Below are positions 8,857 to 63,795 of a DNA stretch of 64,000 bases, one piece after another. The translations under genes were made by a program, and so were the position numbers. Position 1 is the stretch's first letter; each line of letters starts with the position of its first letter. Location: the NCBI GenBank assembly GCA_963771885.1, contig CAVYVF010000002.1, forward strand, positions 160,001 to 224,000, in the 5' to 3' direction. Below the pieces are notes generated by a model. The model ran no database searches. It saw nothing but the letters and a program-made list of their open reading frames with translations, and was not told the origin of the DNA. This stretch comes from Candidatus Bathyarchaeota archaeon. Its GTDB lineage: Archaea; Thermoproteota; Bathyarchaeia; TCS64.

Positions 8857-9149
8857 AGTGTATTACTTATGCAACTCATCTAAATAACCAATTTCTATCA
8901 AGACGCTCCTTAAAAGTGGCGTAAAAACACCACGCGTGCGCAACTAGTTCAAGGGTCTAACAGACCGTGGAGGGTAATACTTCTTTGTCCCTCGAATCGT
9001 CTTCAACGCACCAAGAATTTGATCGTCCCGCTTTTCAGATTCTGTTAATGGTCTATACCCTTTCTTCGCATCTTTCATCTTCATCAATTAGTCAACTCCA
9101 TTAATCTTTTTTTGAGGGAAATTTAGAACCTCTACACGCACCCGCGCAT

Positions 9150-9470
9150 TTGGGGGGTGCCCAGGCGAGATTACCTCGCTGAACCCCGCTTTGGCGTTGT
9201 CAACTGGGGAGTGCAGAAATCTCAACCAGCCAAAGCCAGTCAAGCTCCTTTACAGTCCACTCCTCAAGGCTCCGCGGCTTTCAGGTCTTACACTGCTTCG
9301 ACCTTTCGTCCGCTCCCACCTGGACAAATGCAATCAATGCCGCCAGGATATAAGCGCATTCCATTGTTCTCAGCTATCAACTAATGATTTTTCAGCCTAT
9401 AATAATGCCCCTACATGCGCTGTATCAAGCAAATCTCAATCGAGGTCTAAATACGTCAAAATATTGTATC
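9150..9470 (-). ncRNA. candidate structured ncRNA, element A copy 1
   Basis: Aligns over ~320 nt to 12466-12785 with an indel that breaks reading frames; several self-complementary segments conserved in both copies. Confidence 0.55.
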
Positions 9471-9532
9471 CCTTAGCACGATATCTTATTGACGCGTTTA
9501 AGAATAATGAAATTCATAGAGCAGTAAAGACG

Positions 9533-9859
9533 TTAGTCCTTTGACTTCCTCTTAGCTTTCCCAATCTCTTCCTGAGCCTTCCCCTCGAGTTGCTCAATCT
9601 TACCCTTAAGCTGCTCAGTCTTATTATCAGTAATTTTCCCAATTTCCTCACGAATCTGGCCCTTGATCTTCTTTCCTCTACCCTCAAATTCAGCATCGCT
9701 CATATCGGTAACTTTACCCACATTCTCTTGAACAGTCCCCTCCGCCTGCTCAAGTTTGCCCTTGAGCTGCTCCGTCTTATTATCCGTGATTTTGCCTACT
9801 TCTTCACGGATCTGGCCCTTGAGTTTCTTCGCTCTACCTTCAACTTCGTCTTTGTTCAT
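9533..9859 (-). CDS. CsbD-family protein with two tandem CsbD repeats
   Basis: MNKDEVEGRAKKLKGQIREEVGKITDNKTEQLKGK unit occurs twice. Confidence 0.85.
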   Translation of the reverse strand: MNKDEVEGRAKKLKGQIREEVGKITDNKTEQLKGKLEQAEGTVQENVGKVTDMSDAEFEGRGKKIKGQIREEIGKITDNKTEQLKGKIEQLEGKAQEEIGKAKRKSKD

Positions 9860-9976
9860 GTTTGCAGGATAAGAAGCGCGGTTTATAAATGAAGGCAGAT
9901 AGAAGAGGACCCGCAATTTTGACTATGTTGAATTTTTTATATTTAATCACGCATAGATTTTTTTAATTATTTTGGG

Positions 9977-10074
9977 GTAAGGGTTTATCTTTATGATTTT
10001 CATAAAACTATGCTAAAGGAACGCCATACTCCCTTAGCCTCCGTAGTAGGGGCCGAAGAGGCCCCGAACCCTCA
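9977..10074. ncRNA. candidate small RNA, element B copy 1
   Basis: Core TATGCTAAAGGAACGCCATACTCCCTTAGCCTCCGTAGTAGGGGCCGAAGAGGCCC is identical at 14.7 and 54.0 kb; two hairpins; upstream GTAAGGGTTTATCT box. Confidence 0.55.
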
Positions 10075-10169
10075 ATATCGCTCACAAATCGAATGCGATT
10101 ATATAATTAATATTATCATTAGTAAAACGTGTATCTAGGTAAAGTAACTATTAAGCAGATAATAATGCT

Positions 10170-10355
10170 CTAATGTCCGATATCTGCCTCATCTTGCTTG
10201 GCTGTTTCTACATAGCAATCCATGCAAGCCTCCCCAAGTGTGGGGATATAGGCTATAAAAGTCGTCAATTTTTTATCACATTTGATGCATCTCCGCACCA
10301 AACTAGGGCTTGTAATATTTATCATCCAAAATTCCTCACTACTGCATCCACACAC
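10170..10355 (-). CDS. small Cys-rich (putative zinc-binding) protein, copy 1
   Basis: CGC, CxxC and CxxC; paralogue at 14889-15074 keeps the frame and all cysteines. Confidence 0.7.
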   Translation of the reverse strand: MCGCSSEEFWMINITSPSLVRRCIKCDKKLTTFIAYIPTLGEACMDCYVETAKQDEADIGH

Positions 10356-10373
10356 TATTCAGCCCGAAAGCAA

Positions 10374-10532
10374 TCATCCGGTAGCAATATTTCTACCCTG
10401 AATGAATCGGATGAGCACGACTATAACCGCGATGACCAGCAATGCATGGATCAAACTTCCGCCGATGTTACCAATCAGCCCAAGCACCCAGAGAACCACG
10501 AGGATCGCTACAATAGTCCATACAATATCCAT
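10374..10532 (-). CDS. lmo0937/DUF5670-family small membrane protein, copy 1
   Basis: Manual translation MDIVWTIVAILVVLWVLGLIGNIGGSLIHALLVIAVIVVLIRFIQGRNIATG (below the ORF-track cutoff). Confidence 0.85.
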   Translation of the reverse strand: MDIVWTIVAILVVLWVLGLIGNIGGSLIHALLVIAVIVVLIRFIQGRNIATG

Positions 10533-10537
10533 TCAAC

Positions 10538-10729
10538 TCAACTCCTGTGAGCGCGCTCGAGTTTATCCTTCTCCTTCTCGATACCTTTCTTAAGGTTATG
10601 AGCGCCCTTACCCAAGGCTTTTCCCACTTCCTCAGCCTTATCCTCGATGGCATCGCCTGCCTTTTTTGCGCCTTTAGCTAGGTCTTTTCCCGCTTTCTCT
10701 AACTTTTTCTCAATTGTTTTTGGTGACAA
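10538..10729 (-). CDS. small hydrophilic K/E/A/G-rich helical protein (LEA/hydrophilin-like), copy 1
   Basis: TTG start; SPKTIEKKLEKAGKDLAKGAKKAGDAIEDKAEEVGK; paralogue at 15257-15448. Confidence 0.7.
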   Translation of the reverse strand: MSPKTIEKKLEKAGKDLAKGAKKAGDAIEDKAEEVGKALGKGAHNLKKGIEKEKDKLERAHRS

Positions 10730-11143
10730 GTAACATCTAATTTGATAGGGGAAGCATTCAATATAAACCGGCGCGCGCGCTTCATCGCTCACGCACACAG
10801 TTACTCCGGCGAATAATCACGATGAGTTGCGCGGGTGGCTCGATCTGCATAATTATTCAGTAACCACATTTCTTCCCTGAATGAGCCTAATGCACGCGCG
10901 CTCTTCTGGTTGGCGCTTTGGGTGACGAGACTCTAACTGTCAAGATGCGCTTGTTCTGAGTTTAGGGCCAAGGCAGCGTGTGCGCGATTTATTCAAAAGC
11001 CTTATTGTTCCGTAGTTTAGCTATGAAGAAACCGCGTGCGCACTATACGCCTCTCCACGGAAAGGGGGAGGTAAGTAGATGAATCGCATGCAACGGTGTC
11101 AGTTTTAAATTTATATGTTGGAAATGAACTATTATAGGTTAAC

Positions 11144-12361
11144 TTGTACCTTGGATCGACTTCTTCAATCAAAGTTCTACTTGTCGACGACGAACCCGCC
11201 GTTATGGACATAACAAAACTGAATCTCGAAGCAGCCGACACATCGTTCAAGATAACCCTCGCCCCCACGCCAAAAGACGCACTCACCCTCCTCAAAGGAG
11301 AGTCCTTCGACTGCATAGTCTCCGACTACATCATGCCGGAGATGAATGGCATCGAACTCTGCACCGAGATTAAGAAGACCCGGAAAATCCCGTTCTTAAT
11401 ATACACCGCTAGGGGAAGCGAAGAAGTCGCCTCCGCCGCCTTCTCAGCGGGAGTCGACGACTATGTGAGGAAGGAACCGAATCTCGCCCATTTTGCCTTA
11501 CTTGCGCGAAGGATCAGACAGTCAGTAGAGAAGAATAAGGTTGAGGAGTTCAAAGCCGCGGCCAACAAGGAGCTAGCCGAAACAAATGTTGGACTGAAAG
11601 AATCCTACGCAGAACTAGCAAAGGCAAGAACGGCTGCCCAAGAACACGCGGACAAGCTTGAGGGGATAGTTGAGAATGGGAGAGCCAAGCTGCGGGTTAG
11701 TGAGGAGAGGCTGCGTAAGTTGCAGCAGATGGATACGATTAGCAGGATTGGGGCAGTCGTGGCGCATGATCTCCGTGGTCCGCTTGTGACTATTAGTCAG
11801 GCATCGGAGATGGCCCGGGTGAGGCAGGAGCTATCTGAGAAGATGCTTGAGTTGATCGCTGAGAACGCGAGGAGGTCCCTGGAGATGATTGAGGAGTTCA
11901 GGGAGGGCACAAGGGAGGTGAAGGCGGAGAAGAGAAGCGCGGATTTATCATCTCTAGTTAAGAAGACAGTGGAGGAGATGACTAGGCCGGGTAACGTCTC
12001 ACTCGACCTTAACCTGGGGGAGGGTTTGGATGCTGTTTCGCTTGACCCCGGGTTGATTCGTAGAGTGTTTGTGAATCTTGTCCAGAACGGTGTGGAGGCG
12101 ATGCCTGAGGGTGGAAGGCTTACCGTTTCGGCTAAGCGTAATGACGGCGATGCTGTGATTGAGGTCTGTGATACGGGTGTGGGCATCAAGGATGAGGATC
12201 AGAAGCACATCTTTGAGCCTTTATTCACTAGGAAGAAGGGTGGCTTGGGGCTCGGGCTGTACTTTGTTCAGATGGCTGTGTTTGCGCATGGTGGTGTTGT
12301 TAACTTTGAGTCAGGACCCGCTAAAGGGACAACTTTCAGGGTAGTATTGCCTATTGCCTAA
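11144..12361 (+). CDS. hybrid receiver / histidine kinase
   Basis: VLLVDDE...SDYIMP receiver; AHDLRGP H-box; NLVQNG, DTGVGI, FEPLF and GLGLGL HATPase boxes. Confidence 0.9.
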   Translation: MYLGSTSSIKVLLVDDEPAVMDITKLNLEAADTSFKITLAPTPKDALTLLKGESFDCIVSDYIMPEMNGIELCTEIKKTRKIPFLIYTARGSEEVASAAFSAGVDDYVRKEPNLAHFALLARRIRQSVEKNKVEEFKAAANKELAETNVGLKESYAELAKARTAAQEHADKLEGIVENGRAKLRVSEERLRKLQQMDTISRIGAVVAHDLRGPLVTISQASEMARVRQELSEKMLELIAENARRSLEMIEEFREGTREVKAEKRSADLSSLVKKTVEEMTRPGNVSLDLNLGEGLDAVSLDPGLIRRVFVNLVQNGVEAMPEGGRLTVSAKRNDGDAVIEVCDTGVGIKDEDQKHIFEPLFTRKKGGLGLGLYFVQMAVFAHGGVVNFESGPAKGTTFRVVLPIA

Positions 12362-12465
12362 ACAACTCCTAATAGATTAGTATCGGCTAGAAGTGAGAAT
12401 AAAAATAACCGGTGCGCACAGCTCCTATCCTATTGAAGAGAAGGAGAAACACTTCACGCTCGCTC

Positions 12466-12785
12466 TTGGGGGGTGCCCAGGGGAGATTACCGCGCTGACC
12501 CCGCTTTGGCGTGATCAGCTGGGGAATGTAGGTGTCTCAGCCAGCCAAAGCCAGCCAAGCTCCTTCGCAGCCCACTCCTCACGGCTCTGCGGCTTTCAGG
12601 TCTTCCACTACTTGGACCTTTCATCCGCTCCCACCTGGGCAAAAGCAACTACATCCGCCGGGGTATAAGCGCGTTCCATTGTACTCAGCTATCAATTAGT
12701 GGTTTCTCAGCCTCCAATAGCGCCCACATATGCGCTGAATCAGCTAAATCAATGTCGAGGCCTGAAAGGGCCGATATATTGTGTC
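12466..12785 (-). ncRNA. candidate structured ncRNA, element A copy 2
   Basis: Homologous to 9150-9470. Confidence 0.55.
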
Positions 12786-12844
12786 TTTTTGCGCGAACAC
12801 CTACTTGAAAACAGGATCGTCACGAAACCTGAATAGGTAATATT

Positions 12845-13057
12845 CTACTCCTCATCCTCTCCGCGTTCCTCCTCTTCTTTTTCCTCGGGATTCTCTACAG
12901 AATATTCCTCCTCCTTCTCCCACTCCTCCCGATCCTCTCTCTCATCCTCCTGACTTTCCTCCTCTTCTTTCTCTATTTCCTCTTCCTCGTGTTCTTTCTC
13001 GCGCTCCTCTTCATGTTCAGCCTCACGGGTCTCCCGCTCGCTTTCAGAGTAGTTCAT
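12845..13057 (-). CDS. Glu-rich low-complexity protein
   Basis: 70-aa ORF, more than half Glu; GGAG upstream of ATG. Confidence 0.5.
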   Translation of the reverse strand: MNYSESERETREAEHEEEREKEHEEEEIEKEEEESQEDEREDREEWEKEEEYSVENPEEKEEEERGEDEE

Positions 13058-14459: not shown

Positions 14460-14630
14460 CTATTCTTTCGCCTTCCGCTTAATTTTCCCAACGGTCTCCT
14501 GGACATCGCCTTGGACCTGCTCGATCTTACCCTTGACCTGCTCAGTCTTATTATCCGTGATTTTGCCTACTTCTTCACGGATCTGACCCTTGAGTTTCTT
14601 CGCCTTACCTTCAACTTCGTCTTTGCTCAT
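14460..14630 (-). CDS. CsbD-family protein
   Basis: MSKDEVEGKAKKLKGQIREEVGKITDNKTEQVKGKIEQVQG. Confidence 0.85.
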   Translation of the reverse strand: MSKDEVEGKAKKLKGQIREEVGKITDNKTEQVKGKIEQVQGDVQETVGKIKRKAKE

Positions 14631-14698
14631 GTTTACCGGATGAGAAGCGCTGTTAATAAATGAGGACAGGATCGAAGGATGCACGTATTCGGCAATAG

Positions 14699-14799
14699 GT
14701 AAGGGTTTATCTATAGGGGTTTTTAATTTCCTTTTATGCTAAAGGAACGCCATACTCCCTTAGCCTCCGTAGTAGGGGCCGAAGAGGCCCGAACACTCA
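14699..14799. ncRNA. candidate small RNA, element B copy 2
   Basis: Same core as 9977-10074 with one C fewer in the second hairpin. Confidence 0.55.
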
Positions 14800-14888
14800 C
14801 AAGAGCTAAAAAATCGAATGTGATTATAAAATTTATGCTAATATTAATAAAACGTGGACCTGCGTGTGGTTACTGAGCAGATCATAAT

Positions 14889-15074
14889 TTAATGTCGAAT
14901 GTTTGCCTCATCTTGCCTGGCTGTTTCTACATAACAATCCATGCAGGCCTCCCCTAACGAGGGGATATAGGCTATAAAAGTGGTTAATTTTCTATCACAT
15001 TTTACGCATCTCGGCACCAAGCTCGGACTTGTTGTATTTATCATTCCAAATTCCCCTATATCGCATCCACACAC
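14889..15074 (-). CDS. small Cys-rich protein, copy 2
   Basis: Paralogue of 10170-10355. Confidence 0.7.
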   Translation of the reverse strand: MCGCDIGEFGMINTTSPSLVPRCVKCDRKLTTFIAYIPSLGEACMDCYVETARQDEANIRH

Positions 15075-15092
15075 TACTCAGCTTATTGTAAA

Positions 15093-15251
15093 CTATCCGG
15101 TGGTGATGTTTCTACCCTGAATTAATCGGATGAGTACGACGATAACCGCGATCACTAGCAATGCGTGGATCAAGCTTCCACCGATATTACCAAGCAGCCC
15201 AAGCACCCAGAGAACCACGAGGATCACTACAATAGTCCATATTATGTCCAT
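15093..15251 (-). CDS. lmo0937/DUF5670-family small membrane protein, copy 2
   Basis: MDIIWTIVVILVVLWVLGLLGNIGGSLIHALLVIAVIVVLIRLIQGR... Confidence 0.85.
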   Translation of the reverse strand: MDIIWTIVVILVVLWVLGLLGNIGGSLIHALLVIAVIVVLIRLIQGRNITTG

Positions 15252-15256
15252 TCAAC

Positions 15257-15448
15257 TCAACCCCTGTGAGCGCGTTCGAGTTTATCCTTCTCTTTCTCGA
15301 TACCCTTCTTGAGGTTATGAGCGCCTTTACTCACGGCTTTTCCTACTTCTTCAGCCTTATCCTCTATGGTGTCGCCTGCTTTTTTAGCGCCTTTAGCTAA
15401 GTCTTTTCCCGCCTTCTCTAACTTTTTCTCAATGGTTTTTGGTGACAA
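15257..15448 (-). CDS. LEA/hydrophilin-like small protein, copy 2
   Basis: Near-identical to 10538-10729. Confidence 0.7.
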   Translation of the reverse strand: MSPKTIEKKLEKAGKDLAKGAKKAGDTIEDKAEEVGKAVSKGAHNLKKGIEKEKDKLERAHRG

Positions 15449-15842
15449 GAAACATTCAATATGATCGAGGAAGCATTGAATATAAACTGGAATCTTTGCG
15501 TCTAGAAGCTTTATCGCGTCTCTCACAAAAAGATCAATTAGACGAGGTGGCCGCTTTAGGAAGGTCATCCTCACCCAGATTCAACTATAAGGATTTCAAT
15601 AAATTCGAACATGTGTTTTTTCACTCATCGTAATCATCATATGCCGTTGCTCTGAAGCTTGTGCATTGATGAGCGAGCGGCTTGGTCTGCATCATTATTC
15701 AGATACAATACTTATTCTCCGAATGAGCCTAATGCACGCGACTCATGGTTGATTGATAAATATCGCTGTTAACAAAGTAAAGAATGTAAGTACACCGTAG
15801 ATATCTAATAAATAGCAGGGTTCCTTACCTCCAACGAGTTAA

Positions 15843-53961: not shown

Positions 53962-54060
53962 GTAAGGGTTTATCTTTATGGATTTTCATAAAACTATGCT
54001 AAAGGAACGCCATACTCCCTTAGCCTCCGTAGTAGGGGCCGAAGAGGCCCCGAATACTCA
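53962..54060. ncRNA. candidate small RNA, element B copy 3
   Basis: Near-identical to 9977-10074 but outside the duplicated cassette. Confidence 0.55.
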
Positions 54061-59748: not shown

Positions 59749-59806
59749 GGAGTATGGCGTTCCATTAGCAATAATTTATGAAAACCCATGAAGGCAAACC
59801 CTTACC
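59749..59806. repeat. truncated, inverted copy of element B
   Basis: GGAGTATGGCGTTCCATTAGC...AAACCCTTACC resembles the reverse complement of 53962-54020. Confidence 0.8.
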
Positions 59807-62800: not shown

Positions 62801-63694
62801 GACCGCTGCCCCGAGTGCGGGAGCGGGAACATGATACACGACGACGACTCGGGCGAGGTAATATGCGGCACCTGCGGACTCGTCGTAAAGGAATCCATGA
62901 TAAACGACGGGCCCGAGTGGCGCGCCTTCACACCCGGGGAGAAAGAGAGCAGGAGCCGCGTCGGGGTCCCCCTCAGCTTCGCCGTACACGACAAGGGGCT
63001 AACGACAGTAATTGGCCGCGTAGGAAAGGACGCCTACGGGCGCAACATACCCCTCAACACAAAGCTCCAGATGCTCAGGCTCCGAAAGTGGCAGATTCGC
63101 TCACGCGTGCACAGCTCTACGGACAGAAACCTCGCCCAAGCTATGGCTGAACTCGACCGACTCTGCGATAAACTCCACATCCCAGCAACCATCAAGGAGA
63201 GGGCCGCCATCATATACAGGAAAGCACTCGACACGGGCTTAGTAAGGGGGCGAAGTATCTCCGCCATCGCCGCCGCTGCCCTCTACGCAGCCTGCAGAAT
63301 AACCCAGACCCCTAGGACGCTCCGCGAGATAGCCCGACAGAGCCCCATAGAGAAGAAAGACATAGCCCGCTGCTACCGCCTAATGCTAAAAGACCTAAAC
63401 ATACAGATGCCAAAACCCGACGCCCAGCTCAGAGTCCCCAAAATAGCTGCAAAGGTCGGCGTAGGCGAGAAGACCCAGCAGGCAGCAGTAGAGATACTCC
63501 GCCGAGCCGAGAAAGTCCGAACCACCGCCGGCAAGGACCCCATGGGCCTCGCTGCCGCAGCCCTCTACATAGCCTGCGTCATGAACAACGAGAAACGCAC
63601 CCAGAAGGTAATTGCAGACGCCGCAGGCGTCACAGAGGTCACAATACGTAACAGGTACAAGGGACTCAAAGACGCCCTAGGACTCGAAGTATAA
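62801..63694 (+). CDS. tfb: transcription initiation factor IIB (TFB); true start upstream and out of frame
   Basis: CPECG..CGTCG zinc ribbon, GPEWRAF, two cyclin repeats, VTEVTIRNRYK. Confidence 0.95.
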   Translation, partial: DRCPECGSGNMIHDDDSGEVICGTCGLVVKESMINDGPEWRAFTPGEKESRSRVGVPLSFAVHDKGLTTVIGRVGKDAYGRNIPLNTKLQMLRLRKWQIRSRVHSSTDRNLAQAMAELDRLCDKLHIPATIKERAAIIYRKALDTGLVRGRSISAIAAAALYAACRITQTPRTLREIARQSPIEKKDIARCYRLMLKDLNIQMPKPDAQLRVPKIAAKVGVGEKTQQAAVEILRRAEKVRTTAGKDPMGLAAAALYIACVMNNEKRTQKVIADAAGVTEVTIRNRYKGLKDALGLEV

Positions 63695-63795
63695 TCACCA
63701 CCGAGTGTCTACAACAATCGACACACGACGAAAACCCCAAATTTTCTCAAAGAACAATATATATCTCAGAGCACTAATCGCAAGGGAGACACCCT

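What the first reader, a model, noticed from the sequence alone, without database searches (positions are those of the whole stretch)
9150..12785. Element A: duplicated ~320-nt structured non-coding element, candidate novel large archaeal ncRNA
Seen: 9150-9470 and 12466-12785 align end to end while their flanks are unrelated, and an indel breaks ORF conservation. On the minus strand both copies keep a long-range helix TG(T/C)CCAGG...CCTGGGCA, where the T/C change keeps pairing as G-U or G-C. They also keep nested stems GCGG/CCGC and AGGTC/GACCT with GAAA linkers, GCTTTGGC/GCCAAAGC and a 5' GCGCAT...A(T/C)GCGC pairing, and both end in GGGCACCCCCCA. A conserved GAYACAATAT box at the minus-strand 5' side could be a BRE/TATA promoter. 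It lacks the SRP helix-8, RNase P CR-I/CR-V and group II DV signatures. Both copies lie in the small stress-protein neighbourhood. Inference: an independently transcribed RNA or a non-autonomous mobile element.
Basis: partly seen in the sequence, partly recalled or inferred. Interest (0 to 1): 0.8.

Follow-up and report, generated by a model that had tools for sequence, protein, structure and literature searches.

The report
Circularly permuted archaeal RNA gene family
These two repeats are genes for a small folded RNA that matches no catalogued RNA family, and sediment archaea appear to carry the same folded unit in two different strand orders and in one to three copies per molecule, which suggests a reusable binding module whose target is still unknown.

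Summary
The repeat is real (80% identity), but it is not a 320-nt RNA. Each copy is a ~170-nt RNA gene on the minus strand (9154-9327, 12470-12642) plus ~145 nt of unstructured upstream promoter DNA, with a TATA box at -29 to -24 and a T/G start. The RNA is a three-way junction whose kinked hairpin loop pairs with an internal loop of the other arm; most helices covary. It has no Rfam match; RNase P, SRP and 5S RNAs are encoded elsewhere. This form occurs 1-6 times per genome in 51 of 70 relatives of one Bathyarchaeia family. A weak hit led to a second form in 68 of 401 Bathyarchaeia genomes. It has the same blocks in circularly permuted order; similarity peaks exactly when our RNA is reopened at its invariant tip (z about 5). 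That form holds 1, 2 or 3 cores inside one closing stem. Best reading: a stand-alone RNA whose pseudoknotted module binds a protein or small molecule, with dose tuned by duplication (about 50%). Expression and ligand are untested.

The parts
9154..9327 (-). RNA gene copy 1 (174-nt, P7-arm subfamily); inferred first base G at 9325; closing stem P1 9325-9314 with 9170-9159
   Evidence: CM R1 175 bits (the sequence is in the model's seed); helix coordinates
12470..12642 (-). RNA gene copy 2 (173 nt); inferred first base G at 12640; P1 12640-12629 with 12486-12475
   Evidence: CM R1 191 bits (in seed)
9252..9296 (-). Pseudoknot of copy 1: hairpin-loop strand 9296-9292 pairs with internal-loop strand 9256-9252
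   Evidence: 100% of cells paired in 25 sequences, 2 of 5 pairs with two-sided change; 97.6% in 33 short-class sequences
12567..12611 (-). Pseudoknot of copy 2: 12611-12607 with 12571-12567
9228..9237 (-). Invariant P6 tip GGCTT(T/A)GGCT of copy 1; the point at which the sister form attaches its closing stem
   Evidence: 57 of 58 sequences in A3 and A6 fit GGCTTWGGCT; the permutation scan peaks here
12543..12552 (-). Invariant P6 tip of copy 2
9179..9204 (-). Optional P7 arm of copy 1 (absent in the 132-149-nt classes, branched in the 205-211-nt class)
12494..12519 (-). Optional P7 arm of copy 2
9349..9354 (-). TATA box of copy 1 (-29 to -24)
   Evidence: TATA-like word 26-28 nt before the first G in 20 of 22 parsed homologues; -28 to -25 all A/T in the A8 set
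12664..12669 (-). TATA box of copy 2
9328..9470 (-). Upstream regulatory DNA of copy 1: conserved short boxes at fixed spacing, no RNA fold
   Evidence: a profile of it finds only the two copies at E<0.1 in this genome
12643..12785 (-). Upstream regulatory DNA of copy 2

Best explanation
Each copy is a stand-alone gene, transcribed from its own archaeal TATA/BRE promoter into a stable ~170-nt RNA (shown: sequence signals and covariation; inferred: transcription). The RNA's working part is a ~90-100-nt module. A hairpin is bent at a GA-rich kink so that its loop base-pairs with an internal loop of the neighbouring helix, and an arm carries an invariant GGC-UUWG motif. A GC-rich closing stem only holds the ends together and can be attached at two different places: at the kink (form A, this window) or at the GGC-UUWG tip (form B, other Bathyarchaeia). 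The module most likely acts in trans as a binding unit (a decoy or scaffold) for a protein or a small molecule, and binding capacity is tuned by copy number. Form A lineages duplicate the gene under different promoters (1-6 genes); form B lineages repeat the module 1-3 times inside one transcript. My odds: real structured RNA gene about 0.93; forms A and B homologous by circular permutation about 0.8; 'binds a partner in trans' as the mechanism about 0.5. The ligand is unknown.
For: Covariation: 12 of 56 pairs change on both sides in 25 sequences. In 33 MAFFT-aligned short-class sequences, 21 of 39 pairs and 147 cells change on both sides, against 45 in shuffles. Form B: 28 of 48 pairs and 75 cells against 29. 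G-U exceeds A-C in stems, 212:23 and 83:24, which fixes the strand. Between the two window copies, 11 of 14 changed pairs stay paired in both. Promoter: A at -39 (92%), A at -34 (87%), T at -1 (99%) in 134 copies; T-run after P1 in the short classes; these match the archaeal TATA, A-rich BRE, T(A/G) Inr and poly-U termination described in PMC7289017 (passages). Not cis-regulatory: downstream genes are unrelated and often convergent, as for copy 2, which faces the 3' end of a histidine kinase gene. Permutation: with closing stems removed, 60 form A sequences against 13 form B scored 8.2 in native order, 4.2+-4.7 shuffled (maximum 17.5 of 300), and 27.2 reopened at the tip (z 4.95, 95% above the best shuffle), with the peak exactly at the tip. 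Units per closing stem in form B: one in 11 elements, two in 16 (plus 2 mis-parsed), three in 1. Conserved bases cluster at junctions, the pseudoknot and the tip, with no variable guide segment.
Against: No expression data exist here. No partner was identified: no Ro60/TROVE. The AlaX-like neighbour is also in genera without form A. For the window's own subfamily the permutation signal is weaker (z 1.9, 48% above the best shuffle), and the profile-HMM version of the test was underpowered (best 9.7 bits). The reopening point was first chosen by eye. Shuffle controls for covariation ignore relatedness. P2a and the P6 tip pairs never vary in A6, so they are not proven by covariation. Some copies are broken in relatives, so single copies are dispensable. 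The two window copies lack the subfamily's usual T-rich tail. One antisense frame has no stop in 12 of the 13 sequences printed, though lengths differ modulo 3 (11/10/4 of 25).
Confidence: 0.5

Rival explanations
1. The module is a ribozyme, for example self-cleaving or ligating; circular permutation and tandem units are tolerated because only the 3D core matters.
For: Natural circular permutation is described for catalytic RNAs: type II hammerheads and permuted group II introns (search listing and abstract starts only). Compact pseudoknotted core with invariant junction purines.
Against: No Rfam ribozyme matches. Hammerhead, HDV and twister core motifs (recalled) are not seen by eye. The 5' and 3' ends are explained by a promoter and a T-run without cleavage.
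Confidence: 0.15
2. Non-autonomous mobile element (MITE- or SINE-like) whose terminal inverted repeat is the closing stem.
For: The 173-211-nt subfamily occurs 1-4 times per genome at mostly unshared sites. The two window copies are not sisters in the tree. The ends read TG...CA.
Against: The promoter lies outside the inverted repeat at a fixed distance in every subfamily. One copy lies <=5 kb upstream of the same AlaX-like gene in 33 of 45 genomes that have both. No RVT_1 in the genome. No shared flanking repeats. No plasmid or phage match; 5 viral pattern hits did not score. All genes of this region are scattered in 5 relatives searched, so passive shuffling suffices.
Confidence: 0.08
3. A 5S rRNA derivative or mimic that titrates 5S-binding ribosomal proteins.
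For: Form A shares 5S's Y-shaped layout, and the lineage's 5S loop D reads similar to the P6 tip by eye.
Against: A canonical 5S exists (67 of 79 order genomes). RF00001 scores none of the 5 copies at E<=10. Mean pairwise z against 5S is 0.03, -0.09 and -0.07. R2 without filters gave no match above 9.3 bits (E>=0.61) in 5S, RNase P and SRP loci. Form B is not Y-shaped.
Confidence: 0.07
4. Cis-acting riboswitch or leader controlling the next gene.
For: The kink plus pseudoknot layout resembles class II c-di-GMP aptamers (PMC9495366 passage). Some copies lie 60-170 nt upstream of a same-strand gene. Copy 1 runs into a 46-aa ORF.
Against: Downstream genes share no function and are often convergent. 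A T-run follows P1 in most copies. The distance to the AlaX-like gene varies from 90 to 4708 nt. RF01786 does not hit these loci.
Confidence: 0.08
5. Antisense or guide RNA (C/D, H/ACA or sRNA) acting by base-pairing.
For: The 3' end reads stem-A-C-Y, loosely like an ACA box; kink-like motifs occur in archaeal guides.
Against: There is no variable single-stranded segment, and junction strands are 1-5 nt and conserved. No conserved C or D boxes in A6 or A8. No unique long match to other genome sites at 12-14 nt.
Confidence: 0.05

Closest known systems
raiA motif RNA (Rfam RF03072; PMC10861870 passages, PMC12968392 parts 1-3 of 6)
   Same: Stand-alone ~160-250-nt RNA of unknown function with a closing P1, a bent hairpin whose loop forms a pseudoknot, and optional peripheral arms
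   Different: raiA is bacterial, at a single locus, and has two pseudoknots with PK1 in the P5-P6 linker. No RF03072 match at E<=10 in this genome. No permuted or tandem form is described in the passages read.
c-di-GMP-II riboswitch aptamer (RF01786)
   Same: Kink-turn plus pseudoknot fold (PMC9495366 passage); from recall, a hairpin folding back onto an internal loop, as form B does
   Different: No RF01786 hit on any copy in 5 genomes. The RNA here has its own promoter and T-run instead of an expression platform, and its helices are longer.
k-junction (TPP riboswitch, DUF-3268; PMC10573300 passages and section 8)
   Same: The three-way junction has tandem G-A/R-A capping P3, with P1 placed as a third helix on the non-bulged strand. 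Form B has a two-way GA-rich loop at the same place.
   Different: The bulge is 1 nt in form A instead of L1-L3, so the assignment is a hypothesis. k-junctions were not folded by L7Ae in that paper.
5S rRNA (RF00001)
   Same: Y-shaped layout and size of form A; stand-alone gene with a pyrimidine-rich 3' flank
   Different: No sequence or CM similarity; it has a pseudoknot; the canonical 5S is present.

Membership tests
Any Rfam 15 family | CM score at gathering threshold, or a significant E-value | tested here: not met
   Window: 2 tRNAs only; 9000-13000 at E<=10 gave chance hits; 4 homologue loci; form B loci
Archaeal RNase P RNA (RF00373) | RF00373 match; being the genome's RNase P RNA gene | tested here: not met
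   The single match is at C23:455651, 185 bits; R2 does not score it
Archaeal SRP RNA (RF01857) | RF01857 match | tested here: not met
   The single match is at C23:4201, 132 bits
5S rRNA (RF00001) | RF00001 match or detectable similarity to the lineage's 5S | tested here: not met
   (pairwise z about 0; the nhmmer table in that output was a stale file and is disregarded)
raiA motif RNA (RF03072) | RF03072 match; two pseudoknots; single locus | tested here: not met
   0 matches at E<=10; one pseudoknot; 5 loci in this genome
c-di-GMP-II riboswitch (RF01786) | RF01786 match at the RNA | tested here: not met
   3 weak hits in 5 genomes, none at an RNA copy
c-di-GMP-II riboswitch (RF01786) | Binds c-di-GMP | not testable with these tools
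   needs in-line probing or calorimetry
Riboswitch (cis-acting) | Lies in the 5' leader of functionally related same-strand genes | tested here: not met
   neighbour survey of 112 distinct copies
k-junction | Tandem G1b-A1n and A2b-G2n pairs with a third helix on the non-bulged strand | tested here: met
   A2b 58 of 58; A1n 57 of 58; G1b 52 of 58; 2n is G or A in 57 of 58
k-junction | L1-L3 loop and kinked geometry | tested here: inconclusive
   loop is 1 nt in most copies; geometry needs FRET or a structure
tRNA / tmRNA | Cloverleaf or tRNA-like domain found by ARAGORN | tested here: not met
   0 genes in L001 and L014; tRNAs found in other loci lie beside the RNA, not on it
Y RNA | Ro60/TROVE partner in the genome | tested here: not met
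   0 matches; genome 92% complete
MITE / IS / SINE | Terminal repeats and target duplications enclosing the whole repeated unit; cognate enzyme | tested here: not met
   the promoter lies outside the inverted repeat; transposase families were not searched
Self-cleaving ribozyme | Site-specific cleavage | not testable with these tools
   no Rfam ribozyme hit; activity needs a bench test
Protein-coding gene | Conserved open frame | tested here: not met
   sense frames carry stops; lengths differ modulo 3 (11/10/4 of 25); one antisense frame is open in 12 of 13 printed sequences; sizes 132-211 nt across classes

The most novel reading that the evidence does not exclude
A class-wide archaeal RNA aptamer or enzyme module that exists naturally in circularly permuted forms and in mono-, di- and tri-valent transcripts, and works in trans as a sponge for a signalling nucleotide or a regulatory protein: a riboswitch-like fold used as a stand-alone titrating RNA.
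Probability: 0.3. Interest if true: 0.9.

Novelty: categorically new. Interest (0 to 1): 0.74.

Why it matters
Few structured non-coding RNA classes are known in archaea beyond the translation and modification machinery (own knowledge). This one is spread over about ten Bathyarchaeia families. The natural permutation and the tandem units define the minimal functional module and show that the closing stem's position does not matter, which narrows the possible functions and gives a ~90-100-nt construct that can be probed, screened for ligands and solved without culturing the host. It may also be a natural pair of the same kink with and without a third helix.

Tried and rejected
Expression: no RNA holder was listed; the three listed runs laid 0 contigs on 8900-13000. 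Neither result is evidence either way. Pattern scan for form B over 301 phylum genomes missed its own positives G066, G077, G160 and G162, so it is uninformative. The nhmmer permutation test was underpowered. Viral pattern hits (2, 3) did not score with the CMs. The G224 hit (25 bits) and the sixth own-genome hit (21 bits) lie in ORFs or lack the tip and were rejected; rows L222, L227 and L238 were left out of the tree and the 5S test. Rows without a complete core (L009, L022, L026) and L028 were left out of A3. raiA, 5S, RNase P, SRP, c-di-GMP-II, tRNA and Y RNA were tested and not met. The AlaX-like neighbour was rejected as a dedicated partner because it occurs in 69 of 79 order genomes, including genera without form A. 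The sigma-70 scan is not suited to archaea. No empty orthologous site was found in 5 relatives. No bacterial phylum was searched with a CM, and form B could not be searched with a profile, so its distribution and the absence from bacteria are lower bounds. ESM Atlas gave no usable hit for the 46-aa ORF.
Full report
Observation. The two stretches align at 79.9% over 343 nt and are flanked by unrelated genes. Rfam 15 gives no hit at gathering score in the window except two tRNAs, and only chance-level hits at E<=10 around the element. The genome's RNase P, SRP and 5S RNAs are single genes elsewhere.

What the repeat consists of. BLAST found homologues in 12 of 17 same-genus genomes and in none of the 23 other genomes searched. 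Their alignment splits the repeat in two. The 3' ~170 nt is 83% identical on average, 61% GC and folds to a consensus (structure index 0.74 on the minus strand, 0.48 on the plus). The 5' ~150 nt is 57% identical, 42% GC and has no consensus fold. A TATA-like word sits 26-28 nt before the first G of the core in 20 of 22 parsed sequences. Over 134 distinct copies, A is found at -39 (92%) and -34 (87%), and T at -1 (99%). Positions -28 to -25 are all A/T in the A8 set, and a T-run follows the closing stem. This fits archaeal TATA, A-rich BRE, T(A/G) Inr and poly-U termination (PMC7289017, passages). So the RNA is 9325 to about 9154 and 12640 to about 12470 on the minus strand; transcription is inferred, not shown.

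Structure of form A. The closing stem P1 (10-12 bp) leads to a three-way junction. One arm is a hairpin (P2a, internal loop, P2b, 12-nt loop). The other is P3-P4-P5-P6, ending in GGC-UUWG-GCU, which is kept in 57 of 58 sequences. The P2 loop pairs with a strand bulged out of P4; the pseudoknot types include GAAGC/GCTTC, GCAGC/GCTGC, GAGGC/GCCTC and GAGAC/GTCTC. P7 is optional: absent in 132-149-nt copies, a hairpin in 171-174-nt copies such as the window's, and branched in 205-211-nt copies. On 25 sequences, 12 of 56 pairs change on both sides. On 33 MAFFT-aligned short copies, 21 of 39 pairs and 147 cells do, against 45 in shuffles and at most 31 in slid controls. On 87 model-fitted sequences the count is 436 against 144 (this alignment leans towards the model, and 79 of its 99 rows were found with a pattern that fixes the ends and the tip). 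The shuffle control ignores relatedness. G-U outnumbers A-C in stems 212:23 and 83:24. Folding energy alone does not beat shuffles for the window copies but does for three short copies (z -2.4 to -4.8). The junction carries a conserved G-A/R-A tandem in the polarity of a k-junction (PMC10573300 passages and section 8), but with a 1-nt bulge.

Distribution of form A. There are five copies in this genome. With model R2, 51 of 70 other genomes of family f1 match (one weakly): g1 16/17, g8 29/32, g5 4/5, g6 1/1, g83 1/1. None of 14 genomes of g2, g3, g4, g7, g20, g21 and g22 and none of 8 genomes of other families of the order match. R1 over 151 class genomes hit only f1; R2 over 151 phylum genomes gave one weak outside hit that I reject. 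All 79 with archaeal titles (78 Bathyarchaeia/Bathyarchaeota, 1 'archaeon') score with the CMs, and 1 of 39 with bacterial titles does. That one has flanks 83-100% identical to other loci of the family, so it is mislabelled or mis-binned. In metagenomes, 79 of the 80 fetched hits (of 116) score, and 71 of 80 have a flanking protein at least 55% identical to Bathyarchaeia loci. No plasmid or phage record matches. The lineage name comes from these record titles.

Neighbourhood and history. A tree of 71 copies gives supported subfamilies. Some are syntenic: next to an AlaX-like tRNA_SAD gene, next to RidA and Alba genes, or between CofE and SPFH genes. In 33 of 45 genomes with both, one copy lies 90-4708 nt upstream of the AlaX-like gene on the same strand, probably the ancestral site; the gene itself is order-wide. 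The window's P7 subfamily sits at mostly unshared sites, and the two window copies are not sisters. The other genes of this region are also scattered in relatives, and two homologues are cut at (CG)n tracts. Passive duplication with the promoter in a fluid region explains this better than transposition. The stress-gene context is incidental.

Form B. A third model gave an 18.9-bit hit in another family (G048) with the same closing stem, a TATA box and a T-run. BLAST with it and with a relative found matches at E<=1e-4 in 29 and 58 of 401 class genomes, 68 in union. They fall in f4, f11, f13, f16, f17, f19, f29, f59, f62 and genus g4 of f1, and in none of g1, g8 or g5. I aligned 30 of these loci. 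They contain the same blocks in a different order: P4 3' strand, GA, the hairpin with its pseudoknot loop, a GA-rich strand, the P4 5' strand with the pseudoknot partner, then GGCTTAG just before the closing stem. This is what form A becomes if P1 is removed from the junction and reattached at the P6 tip. The form B structure covaries on a plain MAFFT alignment of 13 sequences: 28 of 48 pairs, 75 cells against 29 shuffled, pseudoknot 100% paired. The formal test removed the closing stems and rotated form A through 19 reopening points. For 60 short copies against 13 form B sequences the mean global score was 8.2 in native order, 4.2+-4.7 shuffled and 27.2 at the tip (z 4.95), falling off on both sides. 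For the 25 P7 copies the peak is also at the tip but lower (z 1.9). The point was first spotted by eye, and a profile-HMM version was too weak to decide. Of 30 form B elements parsed, 11 hold one core inside the closing stem, 16 hold two (2 more were mis-parsed halves of two-unit elements) and 1 holds three. Rfam does not hit form B.

How it most likely works. Shown: two covarying folds with one shared core, stand-alone promoter signals, multiplication by gene copies or by tandem units. Inferred: the core is the functional unit and the closing stem is a protective handle. An RNA that lacks a guide segment and a consistent downstream gene, and that is multiplied in both of these ways, most plausibly binds something stoichiometrically, a protein or a small molecule (0.5). 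Five TFB genes and different upstream regions for each paralogue would allow condition-specific dosing; this is speculation. Ribozyme (0.15), riboswitch (0.08), mobile element (0.08), 5S mimic (0.07) and guide RNA (0.05) are the rivals.

Comparison and novelty. It works like raiA motif RNA (a stand-alone pseudoknotted RNA; PMC10861870 passages; PMC12968392 parts 1-3 of 6) and is built like kink-plus-pseudoknot aptamers (PMC9495366 passages), but it fails each membership test. Ten literature searches (listings and abstract starts only, except the papers named) showed no description of it; two Bathyarchaeia-specific searches returned no paper. The library lacks most subscription papers. A 2026 atlas of intergenic clusters (bioRxiv 10.64898/2026.10.21.760802, passages) does not mention 'Bathy' in its main text, but its supplements and database were not seen and may hold these sequences as unnamed clusters. 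An earlier AI note of this scan (e1-7899277) describes the ~147-nt paralogue of form A; the lines shown do not mention the P7 subfamily, form B, the permutation or the tandem units, and a look-up with a form B sequence returned nothing.

Verdict. A real, apparently undescribed class of archaeal structured RNA genes; the window holds two intact-looking members of one subfamily. Interest 0.74; function unknown but now testable on a ~90-100-nt module.

Noticed in passing
L421-L450, L454-L465 (e.g. L427:1469-1613 +; L435:1488-1728 +; L438 three units): Form B of the RNA, with 1-3 tandem cores in one closing stem, in about ten Bathyarchaeia families. It deserves its own model and survey.
   Followed up: partly
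L416:1501-1621 - (G099, genus g22): Intergenic 121-nt stretch with the family's closing-stem ends and T-rich tail but only 19 bits; possibly a decayed or third form.
   Followed up: no
window 9977-10074 +, 14699-14800 +, 53962-54060 +, partial 59749-59806 -: A second small repeat: TATA-like box followed by ~60 nt with two hairpins, nearly identical in three copies; the fourth is cut at a (CG)-rich tract. No Rfam hit; not seen in other genomes' loci fetched. Candidate small RNA.
   Followed up: partly
window 8947-9084 -: 46-aa basic ORF with a conserved ~60-nt leader directly behind copy 1. It follows the RNA in 3 genomes but stands alone elsewhere; found in 7 of 17 relatives and 3 times in this genome; no Pfam or Atlas hit.
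   Followed up: partly
whole genome; e.g. window 8934, 10771, 11034, 12412, 13136: GCGCGC and CGCGCG are 4.8- and 4.2-fold over expectation in intergenic DNA and mark the points where RNA copies are truncated (L022, L413). Agrees with earlier notes on CG seams.
   Followed up: partly
window 9553-10900 and 14480-15740: Duplicated block of small stress-type genes (CsbD, DUF5670, a 61-aa Cys-rich ORF, a LEA-like ORF) at 80-89% identity.
   Followed up: no
L047, L054, L108, L112, L116, L140, L205, L210, L221: In these 9 loci a divergent tRNA-Arg(CCT) gene lies about 290-300 nt upstream of the RNA, and DNA of variable length is inserted between the RNA and the AlaX-like gene: a possible insertion hotspot.
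   Followed up: no
window 9182-9195 with 9229-9236; 12503-12510 with 12544-12551: In 8 of 20 P7 copies the P7 tip is exactly complementary to the invariant P6 tip, with a matching U-A/A-U switch; the other 12 have a GNRA loop there. P7 may dock on or mask the conserved tip.
   Followed up: partly
G000:C2, C22, C23 (one at window about 63100-63700): Five TFB genes in this genome.
   Followed up: no
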